Notes: generated by a model not told the origin, from the sequence alone. 64,000 bases of DNA from Psilocybe cubensis (GCA_017499595.2 CM039002.1:2294001-2358000); one strand, 5' to 3'; shown: positions 1 through 55,405, numbered from the stretch's first letter. A program made the numbers and translations.

Positions 1-2000
1 GGAAGTGTCGTGTCGAGGCTGCGCCTGCGTCGACCAAGGGATGTTGGTGGTGGGGTGGTAGGTCGGCCCCGCTTACAACTCCCCTTGGATTCATCTGGGG
101 TTATTGGCGACATGTGGGTCGAGGTAGCAACTGGCGGACCGTGGAGAGATGAAGGGCCTGAGCAAGACACAGAGGATGACAGTGGCATTACCAACATTGT
201 GTCAACTGTGATACTCGTCAAACCACCCGAGTCGGTTGTCGTTCCTACTGTCATCGGGGTGGGGTCCGGTTCAATAGTGTCGTACCATGGCGTATCTTCC
301 CGATCGTACGGGGCCGGCTGAGGGCTGGGGTCACGTCTGATTATTTTTGCGGGACGTGATAGTCTGCCGCGCCCAGGCTGGCGTGTCTCGTAACGCCCTC
401 TGTGCGGTTCATGGTGGCCCTTCTGCACAAATGCACCAGCCAACTCCGAGGGTGGAAGCAAATGCTTACAAAAGTCCCATTCATTCTTGACTCCGTTATA
501 GACCTTTTGGTGAGCTCCAAGCGCGGTCTCCTCCCGTTCATGTGCCGACTTGGCTATGTGTTGGCGCAGGTAAACACTGGACCCCTCGGTGGATACTAGA
601 GTTTTCCAAACAAACACCTTAGTTTGATTGATGGGCGGGTCTGTCTCACGGTTCAACCGTATTATCCTCTCTTCTTCAGTCTCTGTGGCCAAAATTTTCT
701 GCCGCTCCCTGACCCGCGCAGCCCAGTATGCATCCCAGTCATCATGTACTGACGAGAGCAGCCTTAGGTTTCCATGTGGCAATTCAATCATGTGCAGCGT
801 AGGCAGGTTAGCACTATCAATGGCGAGTTTGCGCTGTTCCTCGTCTTTCTGTTGTAGTGCAGCCTCCATTTCTTCGAATGGTCTGGACATGTATCTATCC
901 AGTGCCTTGGGGTCATGGGCAAAATGGTTGCTCAGGATAGAGTACACCAAAGTTCGCGAATACTTGTCTCCAAGGACCTTCATGGTTAGCCCTTCGGTCG
1001 GATGAACATGGCTGAAGAATTTACGAGCAAAAGCGGCTGCGAAAGAGACGTCCATGGACTCAAATAACTCAGTCAACAGCTGAGCCAACAGGTCATGCGG
1101 GGGCTGAAGGTGTGGATTCACATTGAGATGAGTAACAATGAACTCCTCTTCCTGTATGCGCCATGGATAATATACTGGAATGGAGTGCTCCAGAAACCAG
1201 TCGACAGGGGGGCGTGTCGGGTGGGTGCTAGTCCAATCATAGACAATACCAGCTCGCGGTGTTTTGGCATCGTATGAATAGACATTGGAGTTGTAAAATC
1301 CATCCAGCCATGCTTCTGTAATTTCTGGGTGTTCGGAGCGCAGCCTGTGATGCCATGCTGGGACGGGACTTCGAGGATCATGTTTGATATGTCTTGAATG
1401 AACCTCTCGACGACTTTGGGCGCAGAGATACGACAGGTACCCCATCCATAGTATGAAAGCATTCCGGCTGGCATTGATACTGCGGTAGGCGGCTTCCTCA
1501 GTGCGATGTTTAAGCATGTACCCCAAGCTTTGCGGGACTGGTGGTGGCGTCCCCGGTATGCGACACCACAGGCGCACTTTTTCAGCCACCAGGATTAAAT
1601 TGACCTCGCAGTCGTACCATTTTCGTTGTTCCAGCGTGTCCATGGCCCAGGTAGGCGGTTGCTTTGGCACCCGTGGGTTCATCTGGCCATCCCTATGGCA
1701 AAATAACTTTGGACTCCAGCACAGAAATTCGAACGGCAAGGACACAAAAGAGGGCGACAGTGGAAAGAAAGCCATCCATCCATATGAATCATGCCACCGA
1801 ATGGGTTGCTTGAATCCCTCCAGTTCTAGGTCGTGCAGGGACGCATCTGTCGATGTGAATTTGCGTGCAAAGACCTCTTTAAAGTCCTGGTTGGGAGGGG
1901 GGATGAGGACCACTCACTTGGAGTTGGGTGACGCATAGATTGTGCCCTTCTGAATGAATGCCGACCCTTCCGACCAATTGATGGGTGCTTGGTTTGGCAT
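1..2000 (-). pseudogene. Long intronless hypothetical gene ('gene X', Agaricales transposon-associated family); runs off the left edge; early nonsense codon
   Basis: ATG at 2000 (MPNQAPINWSEG...). TGA at 1914-1916 corresponds to CGA (Arg) in the copy at 51178+. After that the frame stays open for >600 codons to position 1 (...RNAFILWMGYLSYL...WDAYWAARVRERQKILATETEEERIIRLNRETDPP...NEWDFC). Absent from the ORF track because it has no stop inside the window. Confidence 0.7.
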
Positions 2001-2501
2001 AAAGAACAATCTAAGAGCCGCCCATATTAGTTATCTGACAGACCGGGGAGGAATAGCATCTAAACTTACACAAATGCACTGCGTGTCAGAGTGGTTTTGG
2101 TGTTGGAGCACGCAGACAAAGAGTTGTTATCGCGAGCTGGAACAGAACAAGGCTGCAGAAGAGCTTCTGTAGTCTTGAACGTTATGGCCAGCGAAGAAAG
2201 CTACAGAAGAGCTTCTGTAGTGTTCAATGGAGTCTACGACGCGTCTGGCTATGGAAGAGCTTCCGTAGTCAGTTGGCGTGCAAACGCGGGTGGTCGCCCA
2301 ATGCAATACCCAGAATTGATACAGAAGACCTTCTGTATCAAGCGGGATTGGGGGGTGTCCAAGGCAAGGACTACAGAAGAGCTTCTGTAGTCGTGGGCGT
2401 GCGTTGATGATGCGGATAACAAGAGGTACTGCTGTAAGTCAGGCGGAGTATCAGGCGGAGTACTAGATTTACAAGTGATGCCCGCCTATATTTGTTGATT
2501 G
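1469..2501. repeat. Inverted duplication arm A (partner 50680-51709)
   Basis: Reverse complement matches 50680-51709 (coordinate sum ~53178) with scattered substitutions and small indels; matching ORFs 1954..2172(+) and 51006..51224(-). Confidence 0.92.
2148..2392 (+). repeat. Array of five palindromic hairpin repeats (core CTACAGAA-GAGC-TTCTGTAG) with unique spacers
   Basis: Loops at 2161, 2209, 2257, 2327 and 2379 (periods 48, 48, 70, 52 nt). Stems of ~10-14 bp with G:T wobbles and compensatory changes. Confidence 0.85.
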
Positions 2502-3275
2502 CAATTATAACATCCTAATATAACCAGAAGCAGGTGCCAAACTATATTCATGGTTTGGAGGCTTTTTTACAAGGTTTCTACTGAAATTGTTGTGATATAT
2601 AACGATGCATGCGATAATTATCAAAATCTGGGGTACAACAGCGCGCGCAGCATCAACGTTAGTCAAACAACCAGCCACCTCCATTTCTACAATTAACTCG
2701 TGAACCATAAGCTAGTTCTCCCGACCTGCCATTAAACTCTCGTCAAGTTATTCCAAGTTCTTCGACATTTGTTCAAGAAGATGCCTAGGTCAGGAAGTTA
2801 ACAGCGATGCTGTTCTGAATGCTTAGCGTGCTAGGAGACGTCCATAACACAACTGCACGATGTGTAGAAAAGCCGTTAAAGTTTCTGGTTTATAAATAAT
2901 CATCTTCCTACCTTGCGTATTTCATTTTCTATTATTTCTATCTGTTCAAGTTTGCTAGTAGTTTGTCTGTTTCTCATTCATATCTTGTATCGTAAAATAT
3001 TTCCGCAGAGTGGCGTTGCTGATAACTTTCCATGGGCGGTGGGGAACTAAGAATTAGTGTCACTGCAAAATACCCTCCCATGCTAGGTAAGCACGCCATC
3101 TAACCTTACAAATCATACATACCATGTGATGAATAGTCTTACAGTTTGGTGCATTAGCTAGATTGGATGGTAAAAGGTCTATTCAGCGTATAGTAAATGT
3201 ATAGCAACTTGTCACCGACATGAGCGTGGAACCTGCGCATGTTTACTAATCCAGCTATGTAGGACCAGTACAACC

Positions 3276-4418
3276 TTATGACTGCTCCGGATCCGTATGA
3301 TACGATGGCAAGGCTGAATGAGTAAGGGATGAGTGGCTGCTTGTCGATGCAACAAATGAAGGATCTCTTGAATCGTTGCAAGATGATATGACGGTCAAAG
3401 TCGACAATTCTGTGAGGGATGTCATTGTGCGTTGATCAACCCCTTCCTGCGAACGAAAATAATAAAGGAGCTTTTCGATGATGACCGGGATATTCAACAG
3501 CAAGGTTGATATGACGACCTGAAAAAAGTTGAAATTGCGAAATGGTAGGAGTAAGTGGTAACTTACTGGTGCATGGAGCAAGTATGCCATTACATGTCTG
3601 TTATATCCAAATCGCGATGGATAGATTGACAGGAAGATGGCACTGCCCATGAGCCAGGTCAGAAAGCTAAGGACTAAACGTGATGCCAAAGGTTCTTCAA
3701 GTTGAACAGTCCATATATGGTGAAATAAAAATAAGCCCAGAATTGTTTCAGCTGTGTTTAATCAAGTATAAAGTGAGATCATATGCATGAGGACAGAGAA
3801 TGTTACAACTAACTTGTAAATGCAAAAATTAAAACAATGTGAAGAGGGTGACAGATGCAGGTGTTATCCGTGCATTGAGAAGGTAGACGACAAAGTGCAG
3901 AAGATAGCACCCCAAATGTCAGGCCACATACGACTATGAAACCTGCAATAAACCATGCCCGTCGAAAATGTGATCGGATTCTCGACCTTCTGCGGGTTAA
4001 TGACATGAATAGGCTGGCCCTGGAACACCTAAGAACCAATGTGAATAGATTAAGAAGCATGAGGATCTGTGAAATTTAAATTACCAGATACAAAGAATCG
4101 CGAATGCCCATTCCAAATGATATATTGATCGGAAGCGTGTCGTGACTGTGAAGCAACGGTCAGGTGGATACAGTAACAAATGTTTGAAGGCTGACAATCG
4201 AACACCAACAATACCAATTGAACGACTTCAACCACACCTGCAGCGACAGCTAGGCAGTCATCTGCGGAGAAAGAAGCATAACTCCAAACCGTTCGAAACA
4301 CCGCCGTCGCAATAGCGAGACAATGTACGGAAAGAAGCACGGCTTACAGAGGAGATACGTCAAAAATCAATTATAAGCTTGGAAGGCTTGCTGAAAACAT
4401 ACCATAGGTTAGGTTCAT
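3276..4418 (-). CDS. Multi-exon integral membrane protein, fungal rhodopsin-domain (PTH11-like) family, paralogue 1
   Basis: MNLTY|AVLLSVHCLAIATAVFRTVWSYASFSADDCLAV..., several hydrophobic segments, Cys-rich loop (CRLPSQCTDNTCIC), Ser/Thr-rich tail. Same layout as the genes at 34139 and 43652. Confidence 0.6.
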
Positions 4419-7079
4419 ACTGCGATGCAAGCAAAATTCAGCTGGTGGTAAGAGAATGAACACGTTGCGGTCGGTGACAAGGCTGCCAGCGCCGACAGCA
4501 ACATTGCTTCTGGGCTCCCACATTGCCCCGCTTCAACATGTGTTTGGTTTAACGTAACTACAGAAATGGTGAGCAGAAGATAAAAGAAAGATGATCTGAA
4601 TGGAAACCTACCACTAATTGGACCATAGATGCCAGTTCGTTATCTCATCGGTCCTCCAGACGAACTTGTTTGCCCTGCCTAACCCATTCTCATCTACGTA
4701 GCCCATCTAGTCAGCAGTTTCCAACGTCATTTAGCACATACATCGAAAAAACTCACAATGTCACAAGCGCCAAGCTACCAGGTACATCGAGCGTGTTACT
4801 ATGTTTTCCATGCGCTAACAACCTATAGAACGAGGTCAGCAGAGTCCGAGCAACACTTCACTTGAGGAGATGTACAAAGGCAAAAGAGAGAATTCGTTGC
4901 ATATGTTATGTACACTCTTGGGGATGGCATTCGTTAAAATCTGGGCGCAAAGGGCAAGCAAAATGTCCGAAATTGTGGGTCTATCATCCTGCGTTCGTTA
5001 TTTGAGACCGACTTCATTCGATGTGACATCTGCAAGAGAAAATAAAGTCAGGGCATTAGAATGCTTGCCGCTTGTACAGAGCATGTCATTAATATTGGAA
5101 TACTACTCGCCATTTATTCAAGTTGGCTTGGTTTCGGTTGGGTATGCCTTGTTTAAAACCTTCCAAAGATCGCCGCCTATCCTTAAATTTGAATCAAGGT
5201 GAGTGACTTTTTTGGCTGGCGTTTATTATAATGACTCACTGTATTCACATTCTACACAGCAACCTTGACGGGGATTTTATTCATTCTTGGTCGAATAAGG
5301 GGATTCCATAATGCAATTATTTGGACCAAGGCGTTGTATTTTTGCATATGCAGGTGGTCGGCTTCTGGATTTGAATGTATTGACCTTGGAAGAAAATGCG
5401 GCCCCCCCGTGTTTCGTACTGTCGACAGACTGCAGTCGCCCACTAAAACTCCAAGGGCATTCATCGAGCAAAGAGGGGTTGGGTAGCTGGTGCACGCCAC
5501 ACTGTCGAAAGATTCATTTGGTGAGATGTGCATGCCTATTACCGACAGCTTGACACTCACCAAATACGGTTTCTATTATTTCGCCGCACCAAAACTCCCT
5601 CGTTACACCAAGTGCCCCTTCATCAGCCTTTCAAATAACTATTGGAAGTGCGAACTCAAAGAACCTGGCTAATCGGTAGGTTAATCGTTGTATTTTGTTT
5701 AAGAAAGGATTGCTGGAAAAACGGTGGATAGATTGTCGGCTCCTTGCCAAGTCGTTTGCAAATTTAAAGGCGATGGGCGCTGGTAAAATAAATCTTTGCG
5801 GGGATCCGAAACGCTAATCGATGATCTCTGAAGCAGCAGTAGGACGGTTCGAAGCGAGGTAGAAATGAACTGGATAAGGGACTGAAGGAAGGATGCAACC
5901 ATGAACTGATCACATGCCGGGTTAGGTGATGATTCACAGGTCTCCCTTTCGCGTTCTATGTGCCACTTCCATGATACTGTGCTATTCTCTGTATATTATA
6001 TACGCCACGTATGGATCCATTTTATGACTATTAAAATAACCTTGTCCCTCTCAACGTCGACTACATATGTTTCTTGATTCCCAAGCTAAAATTTCGGTCT
6101 TCTCTTTCTACCTCAACAAGTTCCACCGTCCTCGGTATGTTTGGCTGCACATATCTAGAGTTTTTCCATGTAATTCTGGTCTACTCATTAGCCGCCTAGG
6201 ATCACTGACGCACAACCGCTAGTCACTGCTTACAAGCGTACCTCTTTCCACCCGCCTCCTCTTGTGCCCGAAATCAAAGTCACTCCTCCACTTCTCCACC
6301 GACCACTTCAGGCTTCAGCATAGACGGCAGAGTGAGTGGACTCAGTGTCTCTGCTGGGAATCGCTCTCCCGTTTTGGTTGGTTTTCTGACTCTTGGTTCT
6401 ATCTCTGTTGCTCTAGGCGCGCTACTTGCAATCAGCTACTTGCAGTCACAACCCCAGCACAGTTCCTCACAACCCACCCACTCCCAATTTATGGTGACAA
6501 ACCGGCGTAGGGTGGCTACTTGCAGGAAGAAATCCTGTCTAATCCCATTGTTCCATGATTACTTTTGAACCATGTTCCTCGACTACAACGAAACCCGCTA
6601 CATCGAATCTTCATTGACTTACCGCAAGTTATCATCAGGCTTTCCCCTCCTTATACTAGTTCTCCCGTAAACAGTGTCACCCATTCCATGCCCTTTTTCT
6701 CCCCGGGCGCATGTCATCATTCTTCCAGGATATCGTCTTAGAGCTCTCTGGGTGATTTGGGTTTGTTTAATGTAAGTCATTGGCTTTGATCTTTCATATA
6801 TAGTATCTAATTATCTATGGTTACCAGGCTCTGCCGTTCACTAAACCAGCCAGAAAGATTGTGTTTTGTTAGCCTCATCTCGCCAGAATCCAATGTTATA
6901 GTTAGTTACCATTCATATGGTGTAAATCCTGAACTTTCACATTTCCAGCGCTTATATGCGCCTTTTTCAGGGTCGTACGCCATGTCCAATATTCGGCCCG
7001 ATGCACACATGCAAAGATCGTCCATTATGCACATGTCGAGATCGTCTGGCATATCCTCGAACAAACGCTGGCCCTTGCG
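4214..7079. repeat. Near-identical inverted duplication arm B (partner 31055-33920)
   Basis: Position x pairs with 38134-x over 2866 bp with only a few SNPs; the ORF track lists almost identical translations on opposite strands. Confidence 0.97.
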
Positions 7080-8622: not shown

Positions 8623-9849
8623 TCAGTCAGCCGCAAGGCTCTCAATGGCAGAAAGGGCTTCTGAAGCCAAGCGTTCAGATAAAAGGTGGACATTGTGGTC
8701 TTTGCGGTATTTATCCCATGTAGTCCTGGTGTTCCAAGTGGGTTTGCCTTCTTTTGAGCGTAGACAATGGTCTGCACACAGGGGATGCAGAATAGGAGTT
8801 TCCCAAAAACCATAAATGCCATCTTGATCTACCCATCCTTGTTCATTGTCAATGTAAAGCCATAACTGTGCATCTTCAAAGGATTGGGCGTTTGGAATCC
8901 TGTGGGTGATAACGTCACCAGGATTGGGGTTTGGCAGAAGAAAACTGGGTACATTCGAAAGCTTGTCAGGCGAATGACAAGTGATCAGTCGATACTGGAC
9001 GGTTTCCCCTTTGGATTTGAAGGTACCAATCGTGGAAGTCATGGTTTTGATCAAACGCAACCTTTCCTCTGTTGAATCTGAGCGAGACTACAGAAATGAT
9101 TCAAATTTGGTCAGATGGTCAAGAATGAACACCACTTACATGACCTGAAGGAGAGGCGGTTGACGAAGTTCGATGTGCGTTCGACCTCTACAACACTTTA
9201 TTAATGGCCGGGTTCACAAAGAGGTAAGGAACTTACAGAGGGTCCCGCCGAAGATGAACGTGGGTTCCTGCTAGAGATAGTAGATGACTTCTTTCGCCTT
9301 CGATTATCCAATGCAAGGGAAATAGAGGGACCTGCGGCGTCACTTTCACTTTCCGACTTTGGCTCGATATCTGTTTCCACGGTGTTGGGCGGACGTCGGA
9401 TCGATACCTCTTCACGGCTCTCTCTCTCTTTTTCTCCTGCCCTCCTTTCTTCTTCATCTGCTCTGGGTACCTGCGGCACCTCTACCTGCTCCTGTGGAGT
9501 ACTAGTTCCCTCCGGTCGTTGTCTCGTTTCCGGTTCGGTTTGATTGGCTCTTTCGGCGTCTTCACGGGACTGGGAGGGCTGGACGCTGGACTGATTTAGC
9601 ACTCTGCCATACAACAACAAACCGACGCACTGATTTTCTAGGTTGTTATGCTCTTCAGTATTGCGTAGCCAGTCTGCAAAGTCGTAAGTCAGGATCTAGA
9701 TGGATCGGTGGCATCTCAGTACGATTATTACATTGGTATCATTTCTGAAACCCATCGCTCACGTCAATTAATGGATATTGTGGCATTTGCCTGAAAGCAG
9801 GGCGCGAGGAGAGGGGAAGATTTTGAGGAGCTGGAGTATCTGGGTCCAT
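8623..9849 (-). CDS. Hypothetical multi-exon protein ('gene Y') with C-terminal PxPGDVITH...QLWLY...W...HP...G.P.W domain
   Basis: Start MDPDTPAPQNLPLSSRPAFRQMPQYPLID, charged low-complexity middle and conserved C-terminal exon; clear paralogue at 27808-29485. Confidence 0.7.
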
Positions 9850-11729: not shown

Positions 11730-13580
11730 ATGGCTGAAAACTCGTCTTATTCATCAACTCGCAGTCATGTATTCCACGGCCAATCGCGCATCCGAAAGGT
11801 GGCTACTGTTAATGCTTATGGGATGAACTCAATTTTCAGTATGGAACTCTCACCCGATGGAAAATTCCTGGCTATTGGAAACGATGATGGTGCTTTAGAG
11901 GTAAACGTTGATTATAGCTTGTGATACTGGTGCCACGACTGACCACATCGTGGGATTATAGATTAAGGCCCTTGTTGGAAACAACTGGACACGTGCAAGC
12001 GTTTATCTGACTGGGGCGGCTGTTCGAACTATCGTTTGGCACCCTACAGAGCATGCTACCCTTTTTTCTGGGTCAGCCAATGGCAACATTTACAAAATCG
12101 CAGTTAAACCTAGCGAGGCATGTTGATGCAACTTTTTTATACAACATCCCAACTGATCATGAGTTCCCCAAGGTTGACGAAATTTCTCGCTCTGTGGTTC
12201 CGGGGTTCATACATTTGCTCCAACTATCCCCCAATGGACGAAAATTGGTCATTGCCTATGGACGCACGGTATCCGTTGTTGCAGACCCATTTCCCCGTAA
12301 GTGTTTCATCGTCTTTGTCTTGTATCGATGCTGATGGTGGATCCTTAGAGCGAGATGACATTGGGACCCTTATGGACCTTGAAATTAGCACGGTCGATAC
12401 TGTGTGCTCTTTCACTGATTATCATCTCCCTAGGGGCATTTTTTTTCTACCAGATGATACAATCATTATATCATTTTTTGGGAAGCGAGGAATGATGTGA
12501 GCCTTATTTTGGGCCCTCCGACCCTCGCGTTATGTTTCCGTTTGCTGATGCAGTAATTTATATCAGAGCGTTCTCCACCTCCCACTATAATGAAACTTGG
12601 CACATTCCAATTAAACCCGAAACTTGGTCGGTGACCCCAATATAACATCTCAGACTTATAACCATGGCTAATGTAACAGAAATTGGCAACAGGGTTGCCT
12701 CGGCGGCTATCTTACCTTCAGGGGAGCGTATTGCTGTTCTTAATTTGAACAATGAAGTCGATTTTTACTCCACATCGTACCGAAAACATATCTCTACAAC
12801 GCCTATCAACGTACCGGGACCTGTACCTCATCAGAGAAAGTTCATCGCTGATATAACTTTTATCGACGATGAAACTGTTGCCTTCGGACATTCCAACGGC
12901 TATGTCGGCTTTATCACGTATGGCATGACCGACAGTGTTAAAACCTTCACCATAGACGGTGACGGACCCAAAGGTGAAGTGTTTCGATGTCCGTGGATCT
13001 AGAAAACTATAGCTCAACTTCTCATAGGTCCAATACAGACGATAGCATATGGACTTATTGGCCATCAACCGCATATCCTAGCCGTTATCCCTTCTTCCTT
13101 GGCTGCGTCCGGTGTCAGACCCCACTATCATGCTGATGTTCATATTGGTCGCATCTCCAACTCGCCTGTTACTAGTACTCGAGACTCCTCGGAATTCGAT
13201 TCTGTGGTCAGTCTACATTTTTAAATGTGTCGATCGTTTTGGTATTGACCATGAGATAGGAACTCGGCCGACACACACAAGGAGGTATTGAGAGATTGTG
13301 GGCTCAATTACCTTTCTGCAAGGCATTGATCAAAATTGCAACTGGGAAGGCATCATCTTTTGTGGGCGCCATGGCGTTGGCTTGGACAGCTGCAATGCTA
13401 GCTATGCTTTTTATGTGGTTCTCAACACCGTCAACGATTATGCCAAAGCTGGAATCAACTACAATGCAAGATGGCGGAACACCGACCACGGCAGGAGTGT
13501 GTATCTGTACATTGTCTGGAACCATGGCCCAAGCAACTATGTCTCCGAGTCCCCTCCGCGGAGGGAAGTGGGGTCAATAA
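11730..13580 (+). CDS. WD40-repeat protein with C-terminal hydrophobic (TM) segment, multi-exon
   Basis: WD-like blades (IFSMELSPDGKFLAIGNDDGALE; VRTIVWHP; IHLLQLSPNGRKLVIAYG; IADITFIDDETVAFGHSNGYV) joined by GT-AG introns; terminal FVGAMALAWTAAMLAMLFMWF. Confidence 0.75.
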
Positions 13581-13729
13581 TACCAATCACAGTAGTTACA
13601 CCGCATCGTATGTAGGCAAATTTTCAAAATTTATCACCACGGAGTTCTTTGGGGTGTGTCTTTGACCTCCGAATCGTACATATATTGAAGGTATCTCACA
13701 AAATTCGAACAACACATTTTCTCATCTCA

Positions 13730-33920: not shown

Positions 33921-34138
33921 CGTAGTTGTTCTTAGTTTGTTAGTTTGTTCATTCAATGTCGCCAATCGCCACGCCCAGATCACGAAGCCTAAAGTTTGTC
34001 ACATCTGTTTGGTTTTCTCTTTTTACCATCATCTACTATCTGCCACGTCAATCTCATTTTTGTCGAATTGCTCAGCCATCCTCATCTCCATCCCTTGCTT
34101 CCTCCTCAATATTACTGTATATATATTTATACCGCGAC

Positions 34139-43651: not shown

Positions 43652-44696
43652 ATGGCCTTACTCTTCGGTACGAGGATTCTGTCTCGTTCATAAGCCACTC
43701 ACACCTCATCACCTTAACAAGCGACTTATGCCTTGTTTTTGTCGGGACATCTTTTGATGATGCTCGTCACTTACACCCGACTGTCCTTCCGGTTCCAGCA
43801 TTCCTTCCTATGGTGGGATGACTTCTTTTCTGTCGTGACTACAGGAGTCAACGCCTACTTTTTTGTACGGACCTATATAACAGGTTGGCCCATTTCTTAT
43901 TTATATGGTTTATCAATCTGCTTATCATACTCATAGTCGTATTCCATCGGACGATTTCTCATAACTATGGCGTTGAACTGGCTCTGGCCTTTGGTTCTGT
44001 CTTGTGAGTTGGGTTCCTCCTTCTTGAGCTATTCACCCAAACACATATCTGTACAGTTTATCGAGGACATGTCTTCTCATGTCTCCTACACGCCTTGAAA
44101 AGGAGCGGCCATTAGCAATAGACAGGGCCAGGGTACTCGCTGCAGCCTTTATAATAGTGGGTGGTGTGATTGCGTTACTTTCCGCCTTTCTCTGTGCTGC
44201 GCAAAACCCATGTGAAGACGTTATATGTGCATGCTTGCCCCCCAAACCCCTTCTAGTCATCGCAATTTCAAGTCAGGAATTCGTGATCTCCTCTGTACAT
44301 ATTACTGATGTACTCTTCTCGACAGTGGAAATCATTTTCGATATATTATTGCTGCACCATAGCTGGGTCTACCTAGGTCATTGGGACACTTTCAAGAAAC
44401 TCAAGCATACCCGTCAGAAAGCAGCATTGATCAGCTCCTGCAGCAATTTGTTGCTGCTTCTGTACAGTGCGATTGCTTTGACTATATACCTGCTTCAAGG
44501 CTTGCAACATCCTCATATCGTTGTATATCTGATTCACCTTTCTGTAAGTCAACATTACCTTTCAGTTGTCCTTGTCTGAAGTTTTGTCATGATAGGCCAT
44601 CTTTTCATCCTTGGTTGCCAACGCTACCGTAGCTGCGGTAATCCCTGGTCTTTTTTCTGGAAGAGCCTTAAGGCCACTGGCGTCTCAGTCAGGTGA
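43652..44696 (+). CDS. Rhodopsin-domain (PTH11-like) membrane protein, paralogue 3
   Basis: LSGHLLMMLVTYTRLSFRFQHSFLWWDDFFSVV..., hydrophobic segments and Cys-rich loop CAAQNPCEDVICAC; 3' end approximate. Confidence 0.6.
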
Positions 44697-46435: not shown

Positions 46436-49400
46436 TCAGTCTAGGCTATGTAAATTCGAATCATTTTCATCCCCGAATGAAGAGAACTTCAGCAGCAACT
46501 GTACAATGAAGTGAAAAGTAAGTCTGCGCTCTGGAGATTGACGAAATAGAGTTTGTACGAACTCGGTCAACGGGTAGCACATGCAGGAGACCTTTGAATC
46601 GACCTTCATTAAACCTAGTGAGTGCAAAATGCGATTTAACCTGGGATGCAAGTATTAAGGATTCACGATTTGTGCTGTTGCACAAAAATCCCCCGAAGAT
46701 GTGCTCCCTATACGGATCGGGATCCGAGATAGGCGAAAGTTCTTGCACAATAAAGAAAAAGTTATCACAATCTCTACCATCAGAGTTGAGATAACGGTAG
46801 TGTAAGATGTGCATTACAATGCCAGCCGAATCTTTCGAAGAATCAAGACCCTGATATATGATAGGGCTGTCCCTGAAAGTGGAAGATGATGAAGTCCCGT
46901 AACACAGGCCATTGCGAGAGATTTCGTTGAGAAAAATGGCTTCTCTCGGCATCATTTCACTGTTGGAGCTTCTGCCGAGTAGGGTGCAAATCTTTGTATG
47001 GTTATTGGGGTCTAAAGTTCCAATTTGAGGTTTAGAACGAGGTGTGTATTCGGGGCATTCGGGTTCCAGAAGCGTGAGGAGCCTGAAGCCGCGAGCGTCT
47101 TCGCAATCAATCTTGTCCATGACGGAAATGAGCTCTTTCAACGAGGATTTCAGGCCAGCGTCACTATTCAAAACAGAACGTATGTTTGCGCTGCGTGCGG
47201 CTGTGCGTAACATGGTAGCTTCGAGCTCTCCTGCAGTTTGCATGGATTTATTCATTAATTAGAAGTGCTGAACAAAAAATGGTTGTAGGAAAACGTACCA
47301 GTCTTTGAATTGGTGTTGACTTGATGAAGAAAATTAATATATCTCTCGTAGTGCGGACTACTATGCGAATGATTTGGTCCAAATAAGCCTAACATGTCTC
47401 CGATATGGAGGCAAGCATGGTGATGTGGCTTTAACTTTTGATCGGGGTATAGTGTCCGAATGTTTTGGATGTATCGATGAATGAAGAAATTATAAGAGTC
47501 GATCTGGTTAGCGGATGTGACACGCATGTTGGCTATACAAACAGCCGAGACAAGATCCATGAAATGATTGAGGAGATTTCTTTGACGTTCCGAACCATTG
47601 CTCCAAAGTCGAATAAGAGTAATAGGTAGATGTATGGTGGATACAACTCTCCAATTATTAGCCGTTAGCTTGCCTCTCTGGGTCGTCCCCCAATTCGGTG
47701 GAGCGCGGGTAATCCAAGACGGTGTCTGGGTACAGTGCATGTCATTCCAAACATTAGTCATGACGTCGCGTCCCAGGACTGGACGAGAACGTTCAATTAG
47801 CTGGCGGGAGCTCTGAGGAATGAAAGCCTCCAATTCTTCAATGGATTCTGGGGAGTTCTCGATCTAAATTGGGGTCAATGTTTATAAGAGTCAAAGGCTC
47901 ACAGCGGGTGTAGAATCATACCCGATCAATAATTTTCTCGTATAACTCTCGCTTGGGGAATCCTCTGGCCAGACGCCTTACGTCAGTACGATTTATCTGC
48001 ATCAAGTCACATATGTATGCCAGGGTGGTCCCATTGGATTGATGAAACGCCATGGCACGGGAGGCGTCATCGTTTTTAACGAGATTCCGCAAAATTCGAA
48101 TCACTTGCGCTCGATCTATTCCACCTTGTGGAGGCAGCACTACTGGTACAGAAGGCTCAGCTTGTGGCTGATCGACCACTACCGGCGGCAACCTCGTCCG
48201 AGTCAATCCATGATAATTGGCACTTTGCCTCTAATTTCCAAATCCAAAGCTGAGAAATTCAATCACAAAGGTGTAAACCAAATTACGCACCCAAGCATGG
48301 ATATTTTTTGCCAATACCCACTTTGTTCCAACTACTAATTGATGTCCTTCTCCTCTAATATCTTCATCCACACAAATTTTGTACAGGACTGAGCGTGGAT
48401 GCAGCAGGAGATCAGTCACCATGGTGTCTGCGTTTGCGCGTATTATGCTAACGCATTGGTTAAAGGAGGTACGTTGCTCCTTCGTGAAAATCGGCTCTGC
48501 ATGCGCAGCAGGAGGGGCTCTTGTCAACCCATCACCACCATCATGGCTGAGATCTATTTGAAAAATTGAACGACAATGGTTTTGGAGAAGGTTGAGGTCG
48601 AGCGCATGCATGGGATCAACAACAGTGTGACGAACGATATCCCAATACGGAAGACGATGGAAAGGCGACCATTTGATTCCAAAGGATGCAAAAATAGATT
48701 GTTGATCCTTCTCTGTGCGAGCGTCTTTCCATTGATGGGCGATGTTTCGAATGTCTTGAATATTCTTGGAAGGCCACTCAGACCGATCGAGTATGTCGAT
48801 GTCGTCAATATCAATGTCGCAAAAGGTGCAGAAGTGGTGTGAGGTGGCTGAACTATAGCCAATGATCTGCCGGACCCCCAGCATATCACAAATCAAGGGA
48901 ACAAGCATGGCTCTAAAAAGTCTTCCTAAAGGGCATTTCTCCGTACGTGAGAACCAAACTCCAGTCATCCAAAATTCTAAAAGGTCGTCCATAACAAGGT
49001 CGATATATGGGAAAATGCCTTCTTTTGGCGGTTTGTCGGGTCCTGAAATGACACCAGCAAGGTACATATTTTCGTGCAAATATCGGAGATGCTCCGGAAG
49101 GTTCATCAATACCATCCAAATGCCTGTCGACAACGCAGTCTGCTTCGCAGTTTTCATATGAAAGGGATTGAAACTATCGACGGAAAGGCTAAACACTAAC
49201 CGACCCTCTCCATCCTTTCCAGGAAAGAAAGCGTTACCGAATCGGTCTTTGAGGTTTTTGAACATATCTGTGTTCCATATATCCTCTACAGGGGAAGAGG
49301 AAGGTATTCCAGAAGCACGGTCGGTGTCGATTATTGCCTCCATGCCATTCCGCGACAATAAACGCCCCACCCAAGTCTTCAGATCCTGATGAATATACTT

Positions 49401-50487
49401 CCGGAGAGGTTGCATACGTGATTCCCCATTCCCTCCTATTGGAATTTTTTTCCAAAGTGGCGCCCCACATGGAAGCGACTCGGGGGTGTTGAGGTGTTCG
49501 CAGTGAGTTATGAAGGGTTCATGTTCGTTATCCGGACTGTCGCCGGGTTGGAAGGGATACAAACTATGACATGAAGGGCAAACAATGAATTGACGAGTCG
49601 TTGGTTCAAGACGGGCACGAGAGGCGCCTGCTCAAGGGTCCTTTGGCATTGACTTCATAAGAAGTTGGGGTGCATCGATTCCTCGAAGCAGGCTTTTGTG
49701 ACCAGCCAAAAGAATACGTAATGCCCGACGACTTACGAAAAACATGTTTTCCATAACGAGTGAGAGAGATGTGGCCACTTTTAAAACCGGGTTCAAGGGG
49801 CCAAAGGGTTGAAAATGTACATCTGAGTGAAAATGTTCACGTCAGTCTCACACCATACCAGGCAGATCAATAGCTGAGCGAACCTGTATTGACGAAAGGG
49901 ATCCCAATGCCATGGTCCCCCCGTTGCTGTGACCATTCAATTTCTTTCAGTCGAGTCAGGTTGCCCATTTTATTTTCGATGAGTTCCAGAAAATCTTCGG
50001 TTTCTTCAGGTGGTTGCAATTGTGATGCCAGACGGTAGAGTTCTTTCAACCGTGTTGCAATGGAAATAAATGTCCGGTTGCATTGGTCACTGGTGAGCGC
50101 ATAAAGGCTTTGATGTTCGGGTCTGAATATTTCTTCGGAGGAGGGCCATGCAAATTCGCCATTGTCTTCTGGAGGGTTCACAAAGATGAGTGGCCTTGAG
50201 GGGTTGATGATTGGCAAAGACATCAGAACATTGACTTCAAGGGTTGCCAGTTCAACCCAACTTGGAGGGGGGTTAGACAAATTAGTCGAATTATTTTGGA
50301 CAATGAGGGCCATGGAGGTAGCACTGGCATGGTCATCTCTGACATGGTTGTCTCGAGTTGATCTCGACACAAGTTGACCGCCTTCGTAACAACCTGTCAC
50401 CGGGTTGAAGATGGAGCAGTAAGATTGGCAAGTGCAGAGGATTAAGTTAGACCGTTGCTGACGACCTCCACTTCTGCCCCTTATCAT
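46436..50487 (-). mobile_element. En/Spm (CACTA/CMC) Tnp2-type transposase gene, multi-exon, with one in-frame stop
   Basis: LVFSLSVDSFNPF...MNLPEHLRYLHENMYLAGVISGP, ICDMLGVRQIIG...HHFCTFC, WSPFHRLPYWD...VDPMH, GKLTANNWR, PHHHACLH...FGP...YERY. TGA at 49632-49634 in PKDP(R). 3' end approximate. Confidence 0.88.
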
Positions 50488-50679
50488 GGCTGCTAGATGG
50501 ACGTTGAGGAAGAGCTAACCCAGGTAAGTTGTTGAAAAACCCGAGGTGCGACCTTCAATTTCGGTAATTATATAACTGATGTTCATCGTCAAGCATAGTC
50601 ATAGAAGTAATTTTCCTGTGATCCACGACCAAAGAGCTTTGGAGGTGGATGATCAGAGGAAATTAAATTAAAGTGCTTA

Positions 50680-51709
50680 CAATCAACAAAGATAGGGGGG
50701 GCATCACGTGTAAATTTAGTACTCCGCCTGACGTACAGCCAGTACCTCTTGTTTATAACCACATCATCAACGCACGCCCACGACTACAGAAGCTCTTCTG
50801 TAGTCCTTGCCTTGGACACCCCTCAATCCCGCTTGATACAGAAGGTCTTCTGTATCAATCCTGGGTATTGCATTGGGCGACCACCCGCGTTTGCACGCCA
50901 ACTGACTACGGAAGCTCTTCCATATATAGCCAGACGCGTCGTAGACTCCATTGAACACTACAGAAGCTCTTCTGTAGCTTTCTTCGCTGGCCATAACGTT
51001 CAAGACTACAGAAGCTCTTCTGCAGCCTTGCTCTGTTCCAGCTCGCGATAACGACTCTGTGTCTGCGTGCTCCAACACCGAAACCACTCTGACACGCAGT
51101 GCATTTGTGTAAGTTTAGATGCTATTCCTCCCCGGTCTGTCAGATAACTAATATGGGCGGCTCTTAGATTGTTCTTTATGCCAAACCAAGCACCCATCAA
51201 TTGGTCGGAAGGGTCGGCATTCATTCAGAAGGGCACAATCTATGCGTCTCCCAACTCCAAGCGAGTGGTCCTCATCCCCCCTCCCAACCAGGACTTTAAA
51301 GAGGTCTTTGCACGCAAATTCACATCGACAGACGCGTCCCTGCACGACCTAGAACTGGAGGGATTCAAGCAACCCATTCGGTGGCATGATTCATATGGAT
51401 GGATGGCTTTCTTTCCACTGTCGCCCTCTTTTGTGTCCTTGCCGTTCAAATTTCTGTGCTGGAGTCCAAAGTTATTTTACCATAGGGATGGCCAGATAAA
51501 CCCACGGGTGCCAAAGCAACTGCCTACCTGGGCCATGGACACGCTGGAACAACGAAAATGGCACGACTGCAAGGTCAATTTAATCCTGGTGGCTGAAAAA
51601 GTGCGCCTGTGGTGTCGCATACCGGGGACGCCACCACCAGTCCCGCAAAGCTTGGGGTATATGCTTAAACATCGCACTGAGGAAGCCGCCTACCACAGTA
51701 TCAATGCCA
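50680..51709. repeat. Inverted duplication arm A' (partner 1469-2501)
   Basis: See arm A; begins ~190 bp upstream of the transposase start codon. Confidence 0.92.
50782..51030 (-). repeat. Second copy of the five-hairpin array, between the divergent transposase and gene X'
   Basis: Same five palindromes and essentially the same spacers as 2148-2392; one unit has a TATA insertion near 50921-50927. Confidence 0.85.
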
Positions 51710-52186
51710 CCGGACTCCACCCCGATGACAGTAGGAAAGACAACCAACTCTGGTTCGACGAGTATCACAGTTGACGGGCACTGTCATCCTATGTGTCTTC
51801 CTCAGGCGCGTAACTGCACTTTCTCATTTTTTGGATCTCTCCCAAATACACCAACCGCACCCAAACTTTTATGTTTTTGAAGAACCTCGAGCAGAAAATC
51901 TTCACTGGACGCCTCAAGTCCAGCCAACTTGTGGAAGGTACCTGTCACACAGAACGGATCGCAGTGGGTAGAATGGACCCCTACCAACGAAGCCTGGTAT
52001 CTGGAATGTGTGGAGGCTATCCTCACTCGCCAGGCCCAGCCCTTGACAAGAGGACAATGGAAAACAATGTTGCGCGGGACCCCTCCTAGTCGCAAGCTAC
52101 AGGCTTCGGCATCTCAACGCGCTCAGGCCTTCGTCGACGCGCATGTTTCTGTGGTAGCCTCATTTAATGGTGCCCCAGGTTTGTAG
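51178..52186 (+). pseudogene. Internally deleted copy of gene X
   Basis: Matches left gene 2000->1469, then jumps at CCGGA microhomology (~51710) to left ~270->160 (a ~1.2 kb deletion), then continues into an apparent C-terminal part (WTPTNEAWYLECVEAIL...QWKTMLRG). Confidence 0.75.
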
Positions 52187-52624
52187 TTACAAATGTATTT
52201 GTGAGTCTTTTGTAACCTGGAACTGACCGCTTTCTGACCGATATTCTTAGACGTACACGTTTTTTTTTCTTGCCCCATATGTCAAATATATATCTGTTTT
52301 TGGTGTCTAGGATATCGATCGCACGCGTGATATTTATAAATTAGGGCAGGCAAGTAGTCCAAAATATTATAACGAAATTACATATAAAAAAAAGAACAGC
52401 AAGCAAGGCAGTGGAGATATATACTCAAAGGGAATGCAGTGCCAGGTATAACGACAAAATGGATGCGAACTATTTACATGGGTAAGGCGAGTAGACCAAG
52501 ATGAAAACAACAAGACAGCAACAATATAAAATGAAGTCAGCCAAGATATAAGAGCGAGCAGTGCAAGATCAGAAAAATGAAAAGAGAGGGGAGGGTGCAA
52601 TAAGAAATACGTCGATGAAGTGAA

Positions 52625-53199: not shown

Positions 53200-53499
53200 G
53201 TTGTGGTGGTAGTTGAAGTACCCAATGTGTTGAGAGAGGGCAAGAGGGTAGCTGAGGCAGAAGAGATTTTTTGTAGTGGATGGTGGTGGTTGAAAAGCAA
53301 AAGAAGCGCGTGAAAGATGGGGTCCAATTTTTATACCCAGCATGGCAAACGATGGCAAACGAAGTTACAGTTCAGAGGTTTTGGTTTGGCTGTCTGGCAA
53401 GTATGTATATTCGCCCACAATCTAAAGCAAACATTCTATGTACTAACTATCCTTCACCACCCTGACTTTCCAGAGGCAATCCGCACCTTACGTATACAT

Positions 53500-54240
53500 C
53501 GCCTTCCTAGCCCGCCCCTGCCTGTCTCTGCTCTCCACCACCCTCCTCCACCCTTCCTAGACCGCCACTACCTCTCTGTGCTTTCCTGAACCTTCTCTTG
53601 GCCCACCCCTTCCTGTCTCTGTCCTCCTGCGCATGCCCCCTCCCTGGCCTTACAAGCCTCTCTGTCCCTTCCTGCAACCTTCCTAGGCCGCCTATCCCCT
53701 CCTGCACCCTTCCTAGGCCACCTCTACCTCTCTCAACCCTCCTGCACCCTCCTGCACCCTCCCTGGACTTCCCAGCCTCTCTCTGACCTCCTCAACCCTC
53801 CTGTACCGGGGGACTAGACCCTTCCTAGGCCGCCTCTGCCTCTCTCAACCCTCCCCATCCCCTCATGTACCCTCCTGCACCCTCTTGTACCCTCCTGCAC
53901 CCTCCTGTACCTCCTGTACCCTCCTACACCCTCCTACACCCTCCTGCACCCTCCTGCACGCTTCCTGGACTTCCCAGCATTTCTCAGACCTCCTCAACCC
54001 TCCTGTACCCTTCCTAGGCCGCCTCTGCCTCTCTAAACCCTCCTCATCCCCTCCTGTACCCTCTTGCACCCTCCCTGGACTTCCCAGCCTCTCTATGACC
54101 TCCTCAACCCTCCTGGACCCTCCCTGGACCCATCCTAGGCCCCCTCTGCCTCTCTCAACCCTCCTCATCCCCTCCTGCGCCCTTCCTAGGCCACCTCTAC
54201 CTTTCTCAACCTTCCTGCACCCTCCTGCACCCTCCTAGCA
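53500..54240. repeat. Pyrimidine-rich (C/T strand) degenerate modular repeat
   Basis: Recurring CCCTCCTG(C/T)A, CTTCCTAGGCC(G/A)CCTCT(G/A)CCTCTCTCAACCCTCC and CCTGGACTTCCCAGC modules. Confidence 0.9.
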
Positions 54241-54636
54241 TCGTCCTCGTCACGATCCAGCTAAGTCGACACGCTTTTCGGCGTCGTCGACGCGCGGTCT
54301 CGGTGCGTCGGGTTCGGTCGTCGTCGTTGCTTGACTTCGCGTCGTTCGCGTCGATGGGGCGCGGTCTCGCTGCATCGCGTTGGCCGTCGCGTTGTTGTCG
54401 TTGGCGTCGACCTGGTCGTCTAGTGGGGCGCGGACTCTCACCTTCCGACGTCGTCGTCCGACCCCGAATTGTTTGACTCCGCGTAGATGGCGTCGATGGC
54501 GTCGTGTTGGGTGGCGTCGACCTCGTTGTGCTGGGTGGCGTCGACCTTGTCTTCTGGGATGGCTGCTATGTCATCGCCGTTGTTGCTCAACGTCGTCGTT
54601 GGAACAGTCGGACGGACGACTGTTCCAACGACGACA
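54241..54636. repeat. CpG-dense patch of CGTCG/GTCGAC motifs
   Basis: Many CGTCGT, CGTCGA and GTCGAC words in ~400 bp, starting abruptly after the C/T repeat. Confidence 0.7.
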
Positions 54637-54696
54637 TTTTTAGAACTCTGCTGGGCGTCTTAGGGACTTGAACCATCTGAAATACGAATACCTGTA

Positions 54697-54784
54697 ACCT
54701 GTATGGTGCAGTGGTAAAGTCATTCGTTTCATTCCCTTTTGTTTGTAAGATCGTGCGTTCGATCCCGCACGAGCGTCGTTTTTT
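54697..54784 (+). pseudogene. tRNA-like relic (A box, B box, T-run)
   Basis: TGGTGCAGTGGTA (A box), hairpin TCGTGCG-TTCGATCC-CGCACGA with GTTCGATCC (B box), then TTTTTT. No proper anticodon arm or acceptor stem. Confidence 0.45.
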
Positions 54785-55405
54785 AGGACTTGATAGAAAT
54801 ATAATAACGTTATACATACACTTGTAAAGTACGAAGTGACTAAACTAATCAAATCTCCCACCTCTTGGTGTATGTATGTCTTAACCTTCATTCAGTTAAG
54901 CGCCTCCTCACTTGGGGTATGAATTCTTGGCACTATATGTCACTCGTCACAAACTGAATATATTACTGGATTATATAATATAATTATATTGTTTAACATA
55001 ATATTTTTAACCCATCAAGTTTGATTTTTATTATTCATTTATTTAAATATCAAACGGGACCCGAGTAAGATATGTCTCATTTCGTTTGTCATTTCTTCCT
55101 CATTTAAACTGACTGAAATCGTGGATAAAATCTGCGATTTAAACATTGGAAGAAACACGACTAAATTGCAGATTAAATTTCAAATTTAATTACAATGAAA
55201 TCGATGATCAAATATGGAAGAAATTATTGATTTTTTTGACATTTATTCAACGATTAATAGACAGAATAAATAGGCCAATGCCCGTAGTGATAGATACCAG
55301 ATATATAGCAGTACTATGAGCCGAAAAACGATTAAAATAATCGTGCATGGAGGAAGCTCTCAGAGTCCTCAATATACATAAAACGAAGTGAATAAAGATA
55401 TGCCG

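What the first reader, a model, noticed from the sequence alone, without database searches (positions are those of the whole stretch)
1..54800. Candidate giant, gene-carrying En/Spm (CACTA) element or nest with mirror-image architecture
Seen: everything left of ~55 kb lacks housekeeping genes. It holds a Tnp2-type transposase and about 15 lineage-specific cargo-like genes arranged as nested inverted pairs: gene X + hairpin array (1-2.5 kb vs 50.7-52.2 kb), rhodopsin-domain genes (3.3-4.4 kb vs 34-44 kb), segment B/B', and gene Y/Y'. The transposase sits at the inner edge of the right arm. The right end has repeat fields like a subterminal region before conserved genes resume. Known: plant CACTA elements capture genes, and ascomycete Starships are giant cargo elements driven by tyrosine recombinases. 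Inference: this is either a >55 kb DDE-driven cargo element with multi-kb inverted ends or two head-to-head copies of one element family. I could not find the terminal TIR or TSD.
Basis: partly seen in the sequence, partly recalled or inferred. Interest (0 to 1): 0.82.

Follow-up and report, generated by a model that had tools for sequence, protein, structure and literature searches.

The report
Giant CACTA transposon in a mushroom
A block of at least 55 kb that some strains of a Psilocybe-type mushroom carry and one lacks ends in a genuine CACTA transposon terminus, so it is probably a giant gene-carrying DNA transposon, a kind not yet described in mushrooms.

Summary
The mirror-image architecture is real. 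Three young inverted pairs exist: A 1463-2504/50677-51714 at 95.5%, B 4191-7079/31055-33943 at 99.4%, and C 18427-19329/20285-21186 at 98.7%. Older protein-level pairs lie in the same mirrored order. A full-length Tnp2 transposase gene (46560-50454, minus strand) is present but carries one premature TGA.

I found the missing right end. The sequence ...GGCCAATGCCCGTAGTG stops at 55289. There, contigs of one strain (X9) begin to match, and contigs of X1 split from two-copy to one-copy. X9 lacks 41.7-55.3 kb and both copies of pair A but keeps the flank. The same 20-nt terminus heads 1.4-1.5 kb CACTA elements in four metagenome contigs. Two of these have 3-bp target duplications, and one has a matching empty site.

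No left terminus lies in the window, so it must lie further left. The terminal 888 nt is two-copy in carriers and absent in X9.

Best reading (about 0.5): one CACTA element of at least 55 kb, now non-autonomous, carrying about 15 lineage-specific genes. The left end, its target duplication and movement as a unit remain unproven.

The parts
1..55289 (.). The part inside the window of a strain-polymorphic block (candidate giant CACTA element). It continues beyond the window's left edge.
   Evidence: run X9 has zero depth over 41668-50338 and almost none up to 55289. It has no copy of pair A (bin 51006-51672 = 0), yet it holds 55290-61000. No left terminus lies in the window.
55170..55289 (-). 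Right terminal region. On the minus strand it reads 5'-CACTACGGGCATTGGCCTATTTATTC...; on the plus strand the element ends ...CCCGTAGTG at 55289.
   Evidence: sequence. (the X9 contig starts matching at 55290; X1 contigs split at 55260-55289). (homology to six termini in four metagenome contigs begins exactly at CACT).
54402..55289 (.). Terminal 888-nt arm. It is two-copy in carriers and absent in X9, so it is a candidate long TIR.
   Evidence: In X1 one contig of 888 nt has depth 30.4 against 16-16.8 for single-copy sequence. X5 shows 18.5 against 6-10. X11 shows about 87 against about 45. X9 has nothing over the last 530 nt.
55290..55292 (.). ATA, the predicted 3-bp target-site duplication. 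The copy at the left end has not been seen.
   Evidence: Inference from the 3-bp TSDs GGA (L001) and TAA (L003) in related elements.
46560..50454 (-). Tnp2 (En/Spm TnpD-type) transposase gene of about 1250 codons and about 5 exons, with an in-frame TGA at 49632-49634.
   Evidence: PF02992 at 34.0 bits against a cut-off of 28.6. There are 22 Agaricomycete relatives, the best at 57% identity. tblastn covers aa 15-1235 of P0003. The TGA aligns with an Arg and has no intron signals nearby. A second stop, at 48231, lies in a GTGCGT...TTAG intron.
35253..41645 (-). Nested intact Ty3/Gypsy chromovirus with 450-nt LTRs (35253-35702 and 41196-41645, 100% identical, TG..CA). The TSD is GAAGC at 35248-35252 and 41646-41650.
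   Evidence: It contains no CpG at all. LTR depth is about 60 times single-copy in X11.
1463..2504 (.). Inverted pair A, left copy: the 5' part and promoter of gene X.
   Evidence: 95.5% identity to 50677-51714. Differences are 18 transitions and 7 transversions.
50677..51714 (.). Inverted pair A, right copy.
3..2000 (-). Gene X, left copy. It covers residues 1-636 of a 1079-aa family. Codon 29 is TGA where the right copy has CGA. It runs off the window and is cut there by a second LTR retrotransposon.
   Evidence: Residues 613-629 of the annotated product P0025 are encoded by an LTR start.
51178..52186 (+). Gene X', the right copy. Only fragments remain: aa 1-171, 784-816 and 992-1079.
   Evidence: tblastn of P0026.
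2153..2390 (.). Array of five 20-nt palindromes, left copy.
50784..51025 (.). Array of five 20-nt palindromes, right copy. It lies between the divergently oriented Tnp2 and X' genes.
4191..7079 (.). Inverted pair B, left copy.
   Evidence: No TIR or TSD at its edges; the edge at 7079 falls inside an ORF.
31055..33943 (.). Inverted pair B, right copy.
18427..21186 (.). Central near-palindrome C, with arms 18427-19754 and 19861-21186. It is CpG-poor.
8623..9849 (-). Gene Y, left copy (my own crude model).
28089..29269 (+). Gene Y', the right-arm paralogue (crude model).
3276..4122 (-).
   Evidence: No Pfam hit above threshold.
34481..35252 (+). Membrane-like paralogue 2, cut at its 3' end by the LTR retrotransposon.
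44028..44579 (+). Membrane-like paralogue 3.
12053..14587 (+). Gene whose last exon is 92-99% identical to Psilocybe cubensis JR316_0006192 (590-624 aa).
   Evidence: The precomputed family PF26128 is not in the Pfam copy available here.
53500..54640 (.). Repeat fields: C-rich arrays with periods of 10, 49 and 110 nt, then GTCG-rich repeats and a 22-nt hairpin.
55406..56398 (-). First flanking gene. Its stop codon lies 116 nt from the terminus.
   Evidence: No Pfam hit.

Best explanation
Window positions 1-55289 are the right-hand 55 kb of a single large insertion that some strains carry and at least one lacks. Most likely it is a giant CACTA/En-Spm (Tnp2-type DDE) transposon, in what is most likely Psilocybe cubensis.

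It ends on the right in the terminus ...GGCCAATGCCCGTAGTG at 55289. By inference, its left end lies roughly 8-11 kb beyond the window, as an inverted copy of the terminal 0.9-kb arm preceded by ATA. Inside it carries its own Tnp2 gene, now inactivated by one nonsense codon. It also carries about 15 lineage-specific genes laid out as mirrored arms, and at least two later insertions of a high-copy Ty3/Gypsy element.

Mechanism (inferred): cut-and-paste by a Tnp2 transposase that recognises the conserved 20-27-nt termini and makes a 3-bp target duplication. This copy would now depend on a transposase supplied in trans.

The mirrored interior is best explained in one of two ways. Either the inverted arms spread inward by intramolecular repair or gene conversion, or a half-element dimerised head to head. 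Related small elements are also foldback-like, with 428-nt arms. Patchy later conversion would then give B 99.7%, A 95.5%, and the rest no longer alignable.
For: Shown:
1. The terminus CACTAC... lies at 55289.
2. In run X9 a 9050-nt contig matches only from 55290 onward, and its other 8426 nt match nothing in 41001-55289. X9 has zero depth over 41668-50338 and 51006-51672. The latter bin also means it has no copy of the left arm's pair A, which would have been laid at 95.5% identity. X9's flank 55290-61000 is present with 105 differences in 5717 nt.
3. In X1 the contig graph splits exactly at 55260-55289. The 888-nt contig 54402-55289 has depth 30.4, and the contig from 55260 on has depth 16.8. 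So the terminal arm exists twice and the copies diverge at base 55290.
4. All 3 of 3 laid carriers (X1, X5, X11) have about two copies of the arm. The 1 of 1 laid non-carrier has none. This fits the two ends of one element.
5. The exact 20-mer occurs in 4 metagenome contigs. L001 705-2082 and L003 2544-4060 are complete elements with TSDs GGA and TAA. L004 holds the empty site of L001 with a single GGA. Homology to the window begins exactly at CACT.
6. A full-length Tnp2 gene is the only DNA-transposase domain among the 44 ORFs scanned left of 55290.
7. No TIR+TSD pair above shuffled controls bounds a compact Tnp2 element.
8. The carrier interiors are almost identical to the window (X5: 2 differences in 8632 nt), while the flank differs by 50 in 4028 nt (table 8). 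The block is therefore much younger than the allelic divergence around it.
9. The mirrored order continues left of the window. X is followed by an LTR element and then by sequence matching 51810-52339.
Against: - The left terminus, and therefore the TSD of this copy, was not seen. No genome is held and the single read-laying run covered only 41-61 kb.
- Absence in X9 rests on Logan contigs at 90% identity or more. The tool warns that contigs show presence better than absence.
- What X9 has left of 55290 is unknown. It could be sequence from window 1-41 kb, which would make the event a smaller deletion.
- The second copy of the 888-nt arm has not been mapped.
- The Tnp2 gene has a premature stop in the window and in contigs of X1 and X5 (0 other letters across it). 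It is single-copy in X1, X5 and X11, so there is no sign of recent activity.
- Only one site is documented.
- The cargo has ordinary CpG content (observed/expected 0.83-0.84 against 0.88 in the flank). Gene X has paralogues elsewhere in the same species. The region could therefore be ordinary accessory DNA.
- The arms are unalignable between the islands, which a single recent palindrome does not explain.
- In X11 the flank alleles are X9-like from 55727 on, and depth is 45 over the block against 30 over the flank. Neither is explained.
Confidence: 0.5

Rival explanations
1. A multi-step island. The end at 55289 is only the right-hand remnant or edge of an ordinary, smaller CACTA element. The rest is a lineage-specific, duplication-prone gene cluster built by inverted segmental duplications and TE insertions. 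The difference in X9 is either a one-sided deletion anchored at the transposon end (aberrant transposition) or a second, unrelated indel.
For: There is no left terminus in the window. The pairs have very different ages (99.7%, 95.5%, 85-98.7%, and about 40% at the amino-acid level), with unalignable DNA between them. The edges of B fall inside ORFs and have no TIR or TSD. The cargo has gene-like CpG content. Gene X has paralogues elsewhere. The Tnp2 gene is single-copy and broken.
Against: It needs two or more events whose boundary happens to fall at the exact transposon end. It also needs the second copy of the arm, both copies of X and the Tnp2 block to be absent together in X9. The near-identity of the carrier interiors against a 1.2-1.8% flank difference suggests one young unit.
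Confidence: 0.3
2. A macrotransposon, or two head-to-head copies. Two members of one CACTA family, each with one good outer end, flank host DNA and are mobilised, or were at least created, together. The mirror image reflects two inverted copies of an X-hairpin-bearing element and not one element.
For: X, its hairpin array and the terminal arm occur as inverted copies. Only the right arm has the Tnp2 block (9026 nt extra). The left arm holds its own LTR insertion.
Against: The inner edges of pair A (2504 and 50677) carry no CACTA-type terminus. No internal copy of the terminal 14-20-mer exists in the window.
Confidence: 0.12
3. An assembly artefact or a divergent-haplotype effect. The mirrored structure is a mis-join of repeats, or X9 simply carries a haplotype more than 10% diverged.
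For: Palindromic repeats are hard to assemble. X1-X3 may be the sample the window came from (warns of this). Contigs were laid only at 90% identity or more.
Against: The repeat copies differ (95.5-99.7%, not 100%), so they are not collapsed duplicates. Runs X5 and X11 reproduce the local sequence, including the LTR junction at 41646 and the TGA. A jump from under 2% to over 10% divergence at one base next to TAGTG is not how haplotypes diverge. No mating-type genes were found by Pfam.
Confidence: 0.05

Closest known systems
CACTA / En-Spm DNA transposons, including fungal EnSpm as described by Kojima 2025 (PMC12730594; outline and searched passages read)
   Same: The terminus is 5'-CACTA...TAGTG-3'. 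Small relatives make 3-bp TSDs. The element carries a Tnp2/TnpD-type transposase (PF02992). The subterminal region is AT-rich with short repeats. Those passages give fungal EnSpm termini as CAC..GTG with 3-bp TSDs.
   Different: The size is at least 55 kb. From recall, plant CACTA elements are typically 5-30 kb. It carries about 15 apparently whole genes and not gene fragments. It has a mirrored interior and a roughly 0.9-kb terminal arm. Its left end is not yet seen.
Plavaka elements of Agaricomycetes (PMC12730594, passages)
   Same: They occur in Agaricales, have a related CMC-type transposase and can carry a passenger gene (TET/JBP).
   Different: The paper gives Plavaka termini as TGT..ACA (2-bp TSD) or CATCA..TGATG (2-3 bp). 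The end found here is CACTAC..GTAGTG. No TET/JBP domain was found in the 44 ORFs scanned.
Pack-CACTA elements of plants (PMC6379663; seen only as a search listing and the start of its abstract)
   Same: They are CACTA-ended elements that carry host-derived DNA.
   Different: Pack-type elements are non-autonomous and carry gene fragments. This block holds its own, now broken, transposase and whole multi-exon genes.
Starships of Pezizomycotina (PMC11162782, one passage read; other papers seen only in listings)
   Same: They are giant, strain-polymorphic fungal elements rich in cargo genes.
   Different: Starships use a tyrosine recombinase. No such domain was found here. The passage says Starship recombinases are generally lacking in Basidiomycota. 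The ends here are CACTA-type.
Foldback-like CACTA MITEs in metagenome contigs L001-L004
   Same: The first 20 nt of the terminus are identical, and about 71% of the first 128 nt match. They too have long inverted arms.
   Different: They are 1.4-1.5 kb with no coding capacity, and they come from another, unidentified fungus.

Membership tests
CACTA/En-Spm superfamily | Right terminus ...TAGTG (5'-CACTA on the other strand) at a real element boundary | tested here: met
   One search gives the sequence. The boundary is fixed to the base by the X9 contig start at 55290 and by the X1 contig split at 55260-55289.
CACTA/En-Spm superfamily | Matching left terminus in inverted orientation | not testable with these tools
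   It is absent from the window (only chance-level 12-mers with two mismatches). No genome is held. The two-copy depth of the terminal 888 nt is indirect support only.
CACTA/En-Spm superfamily | 3-bp target-site duplication | tested here: inconclusive
   It is met in 2 of 2 complete related elements (GGA in L001, TAA in L003), and an empty site is seen in L004. For the window copy only the right flank (ATA) is visible.
CACTA/En-Spm superfamily | Tnp2/TnpD-type DDE transposase encoded inside | tested here: met
   PF02992 scores above its cut-off. The gene is colinear over its full length with 1200-1300-aa relatives. It has one premature TGA. The catalytic residues were not checked.
CACTA/En-Spm superfamily | Subterminal arrays of short transposase-binding repeats | tested here: inconclusive
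   Only weak short repeats lie in the last 300 nt. The large arrays at 53.5-54.6 kb are 0.7-1.8 kb from the end.
CACTA/En-Spm superfamily | Empty site in another genome (mobility) | tested here: inconclusive
   Only the right junction is seen: X9 matches from 55290. The left junction was not seen.
Plavaka | Termini TGT..ACA or CATCA..TGATG (PMC12730594) | tested here: not met
   The end at 55289 is GTAGTG.
Starship | Tyrosine-recombinase 'captain' gene (DUF3435) | tested here: not met
   None of the 44 ORFs of 97 aa or more scanned left of 55290 has such a hit. The scan was by exon-sized ORFs and is not exhaustive.
Ty3/Gypsy chromovirus (nested element 35253-41645) | TG..CA LTRs, 5-bp TSD, and gag plus PR-RT-RNaseH-IN-chromodomain pol | tested here: met

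The most novel reading that the evidence does not exclude
A Starship-like, cargo-mobilising giant transposon in Basidiomycota that is driven by a DDE (Tnp2/CACTA) transposase and not a tyrosine recombinase. It would be an element of about 65 kb with roughly 0.9-kb perfect terminal arms and a mirrored interior. It would move about 15 lineage-specific genes as one unit and would be segregating among strains of a Psilocybe species.
Probability: 0.45. Interest if true: 0.85.

Novelty: new variant of a known kind. Interest (0 to 1): 0.72.

Why it matters
Giant cargo-carrying transposons in fungi are so far known as Starships, which are confined to Pezizomycotina and use tyrosine recombinases. My literature searches turned up no giant gene-carrying CACTA or other DDE element in mushrooms.

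If the left end is confirmed, this would show that an ordinary cut-and-paste superfamily can grow to more than 55 kb in a basidiomycete. It would carry whole genes between genomic sites, creating presence/absence variation of about 15 genes between strains. It would also give a concrete, testable locus: an exact terminus, a predicted TSD, and named carrier and non-carrier runs.

If the left end is not there, the result is still useful. The locus would then be a TE-bounded accessory island with unusual mirrored structure.

Tried and rejected
- Whole genome of the window: not held, so the 10 kb left of the window could not be read.
- Earlier notes of this scan: nothing by place, sequence or words.
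- A compact Tnp2 element. The candidate end ...AAAGTG at 50675 has no partner. No 16-mer with 14 or more matches exists for any end in 50500-50730 apart from pair A. TIR+TSD pairs between 41651-46560 and 50455-50800 numbered 94 pairs, 3 with a TSD and 4 at 12/14 or better. Five shuffled controls gave 43-99 pairs, 3-15 with a TSD and 3-14 at 12/14 or better.
- A left terminus inside the window. The 20-mer with up to 3 mismatches, the 12-mer with up to 2, the 14-mer with up to 2, and all CACTA/CACTG starts gave only chance-level hits at 12428 and 23350.
- Nucleotide homology of the arms between the pairs: not above shuffles.
- Pfam on 49 window ORFs. Six have hits above the cut-off: pol, gag, Tnp2 and three flank genes. 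The other 43 have none. Weak sub-threshold rows (Cytochrome_B, STE2, ARM_TBCD, Adeno_E3, LIN52, DUF3189) were ignored.
- Pfam on X relatives and on JR316_0006192: none. The precomputed families PF28437 and PF26128 are not in this Pfam copy.
- Protein atlas on 44028-44579 and on P0026: no hit scoring 0.9 or more.
- tRNA or ncRNA. ARAGORN found none. Rfam found none at gathering score, and only sub-threshold miRNA-hairpin rows at 54585-54647. The tRNA-like T-arm at 54755 is my reading only.
- My own crude gene finder gives 16 non-TE models left of 55.3 kb. They are rough guides only. Joined products were not sent to any tool.
- The metagenome loci share only the terminal 128 nt or so with the window and encode nothing similar to the session's proteins.
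- Supplementary files of PMC12730594 (terminal sequences of Plavaka and EnSpm families) were not opened; they may bear on classifying the terminus.

Full report
**1. What is in the sequence**

Self-comparison shows three young inverted pairs.
- A: 1463-2504 vs 50677-51714 (1051 nt, 95.5%).
- B: 4191-7079 vs 31055-33943 (2889 nt, 99.4%). From 4214 on there are only 9 differences, all transitions.
- C: a central near-palindrome. The outer 903 nt of 18427-19329 vs 20285-21186 are 98.7% identical. At 85% the arms extend to 18427-19754 and 19861-21186.

Translated self-comparison adds old pairs in the same mirrored order.
- 8749-9075(-) vs 29054-29380(+): 41% over 109 aa.
- 9760-9834 vs 27814-27888.
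- A three-member membrane-like family at 3549-4122(-), 34481-34918(+) and 44043-44561(+).

Between these islands the arms are not alignable above shuffled controls. The coordinate sums (A 53181, B 38134, Y 38128, C 39615) show that A is off-axis. It fits the axis only after removing a 6398-nt retrotransposon and the 9026-nt block 41651-50676.

**2. Two transposable elements inside**

The stretch 35253-41645 is an intact Ty3/Gypsy chromovirus.
- Its 450-nt LTRs are 100% identical and run TG..CA.
- Its TSD is GAAGC.
- It has a gag ORF and a 1289-aa pol ORF with protease, RT, RNase H, integrase and chromodomain.

It has cut the 3' end of the second membrane-like gene.

The Tnp2 gene spans 50454-46560 on the minus strand. 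tblastn of a 1247-aa Galerina relative covers its residues 15-1235 in four pieces at 40-61% identity. The apparent stop at 48231 lies in a 60-nt GTGCGT...TTAG intron. The TGA at 49632-49634 aligns with an arginine of the relative in a well-conserved stretch and has no intron signals. Contigs of X1 and X5 cross it with no differences, so it is not an error of this assembly. The transposase is therefore probably inactive. No TIR+TSD pair above shuffled controls bounds a compact element around it.

**3. Gene X and the hairpins**

Gene X belongs to a small family: 6 proteins were found, 1075-1085 aa when complete.
- The left copy (3-2000, minus strand) has TGA at codon 29 where the right copy has CGA. 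The last 17 residues of its annotated product are encoded by an LTR start. A second LTR element therefore cuts it just left of the window.
- The right copy keeps only fragments: aa 1-171, 784-816 and 992-1079.

Each copy is preceded by five copies of a 20-nt palindrome found nowhere else in the window.

**4. The right end**

The plus strand reads ...GACAGAATAAATAGGCCAATGCCCGTAGTG and stops at 55289. Laying contigs and reads of four runs on 41001-61000 (the one call allowed) gave the following.
- X9 has zero depth in all 13 bins from 41668 to 50338, and in 51006-51672 and 52340-53673.
- X9 does hold 55290-61000. A 9050-nt X9 contig matches only with its last 600 nt or so, starting at 55290.
- X1 contigs split at 55260-55289. 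An 888-nt contig (54402-55289) has depth 30.4, and a 19.3-kb contig from 55260 on has depth 16.8.

The terminal arm is therefore present twice, and the two copies part company at base 55290. X5 and X11 also show about two copies of the arm; X9 shows none. Pair A is 95.5% alike, so a left copy would have been laid on 50677-51714. Its absence means X9 also lacks window 1505-2170. If the missing stretch is contiguous, it is at least 53.8 kb.

**5. The terminus belongs to a proven CACTA family**

The 20-mer CACTACGGGCATTGGCCTAT occurs in four contigs of one metagenome.
- L001 705-2082 and L003 2544-4060 are complete 1.4-1.5 kb elements with 428-nt inverted arms.
- Their 3-bp duplications are GGA and TAA.
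- L004 carries the empty site of the L001 insertion with a single GGA.

In an alignment of seven ends, homology starts exactly at CACT. The three bases before it differ from end to end. Passages of Kojima 2025 (PMC12730594) give fungal EnSpm ends as CAC..GTG with 3-bp TSDs, and give different termini for Plavaka. No second terminus lies in the window.

**6. Age and identity**

In X5 the interior differs from the window at 2 of 8632 positions, and the flank at 50 of 4028. The X9 flank differs at 105 of 5717 (table 8). The block is thus much younger than the alleles around it.

The last exon of the gene at 12.05-14.59 kb is 92-99% identical to Psilocybe cubensis JR316_0006192. That protein sits on a contig of the same length as the window's own, so the window is most likely from that species.

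The cargo has gene-like CpG content (observed/expected 0.83-0.84 against 0.88 in the flank). The retrotransposon has no CpG at all.

**7. Reading**

The simplest account is one large CACTA-ended insertion whose left end lies beyond the window, now non-autonomous. I put this at about 0.5.

Against it:
- The left end and its TSD were not seen.
- Only one site is known.
- Absence in X9 rests on contigs.
- The arms are of very mixed age.
- The transposase is single-copy and broken.
- In X11 the flank alleles are X9-like from 55727 on, and depth is 45 over the block against 30 over the flank. Neither is explained.

Rivals:
- A multi-step island whose edge is a CACTA remnant, possibly with a one-sided deletion in X9 (0.3).
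- A macrotransposon or head-to-head pair (0.12).
- An assembly artefact or a divergent haplotype (0.05).

**8. Novelty**

Searches for giant CACTA or other DDE cargo elements in basidiomycetes found none. One passage of PMC11162782 states that Starship recombinases are largely lacking in Basidiomycota. If confirmed, this is a new, extreme variant of a known superfamily.

Noticed in passing
window 35253-41645: The intact Ty3/Gypsy chromovirus contains no CpG dinucleotide in about 6.4 kb (observed/expected 0.00). Yet it has open gag and pol frames, identical LTRs and about 60-fold LTR depth in raw reads of X11. It looks like an active family purged of methylation targets.
   Followed up: partly
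window 18427-21186: A near-perfect palindrome with 1.33-kb arms and a loop of about 106 nt. The outer 903 nt are 98.7% identical. It is CpG-poor (0.54-0.57) and sits at the centre of the mirrored region. CACT is present on both flanks.
   Followed up: partly
window 2153-2390 and 50784-51025: Five copies of the 20-nt palindrome CTACAGAAGCTCTTCTGTAG lie upstream of each copy of gene X. On the right they sit between X' and the divergently oriented Tnp2 gene. They could be a regulator- or transposase-binding array; this is unknown.
   Followed up: partly
window 50620-50650: A 31-nt word containing the palindrome CCAAAGAGCTTTGG is high-copy in all four runs, including X9, which lacks the block. It occurs once in the window and is probably a fragment of another repeat family.
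   Followed up: no
window 54755-54790: A tRNA T-arm-like GTGCGTTCGATCCCGCAC is followed by a T-run. A contig with a different 5' part enters at 54755 in X1, X5 and X9, so a paralogue exists outside the block. ARAGORN and Rfam call no tRNA here.
   Followed up: partly
window 49632-49634 and about 1914-1916: Both the transposase and the left copy of gene X are interrupted by TGA where relatives, or the other copy, have an arginine (CGA in the right copy of X). That is a C-to-T change at a CpG.
   Followed up: partly
L001 705-2082, L003 2544-4060, L004 1349-1352: Metagenome contigs hold foldback-like CACTA MITEs with 3-bp TSDs and a filled/empty site pair. L002 is a longer variant with other internal DNA.
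   Followed up: yes
window 55290-61000 (runs X5, X11): X5 shows two flank haplotypes, one like the window and one like X9. X11 carries the block almost unchanged but has X9-like flank alleles from 55727 on, and depth of 45 over the block against 30 over the flank. This could mean recombination close to the end or a second insertion site; it is not resolved.
   Followed up: no
window 53500-54300, 24714-25458, 17361-17606: There are C-rich arrays with periods of 10, 49 and 110 nt, a field of 100-130-nt repeats at 24.7-25.5 kb, and a 123-nt tandem duplication inside a long ORF.
   Followed up: no
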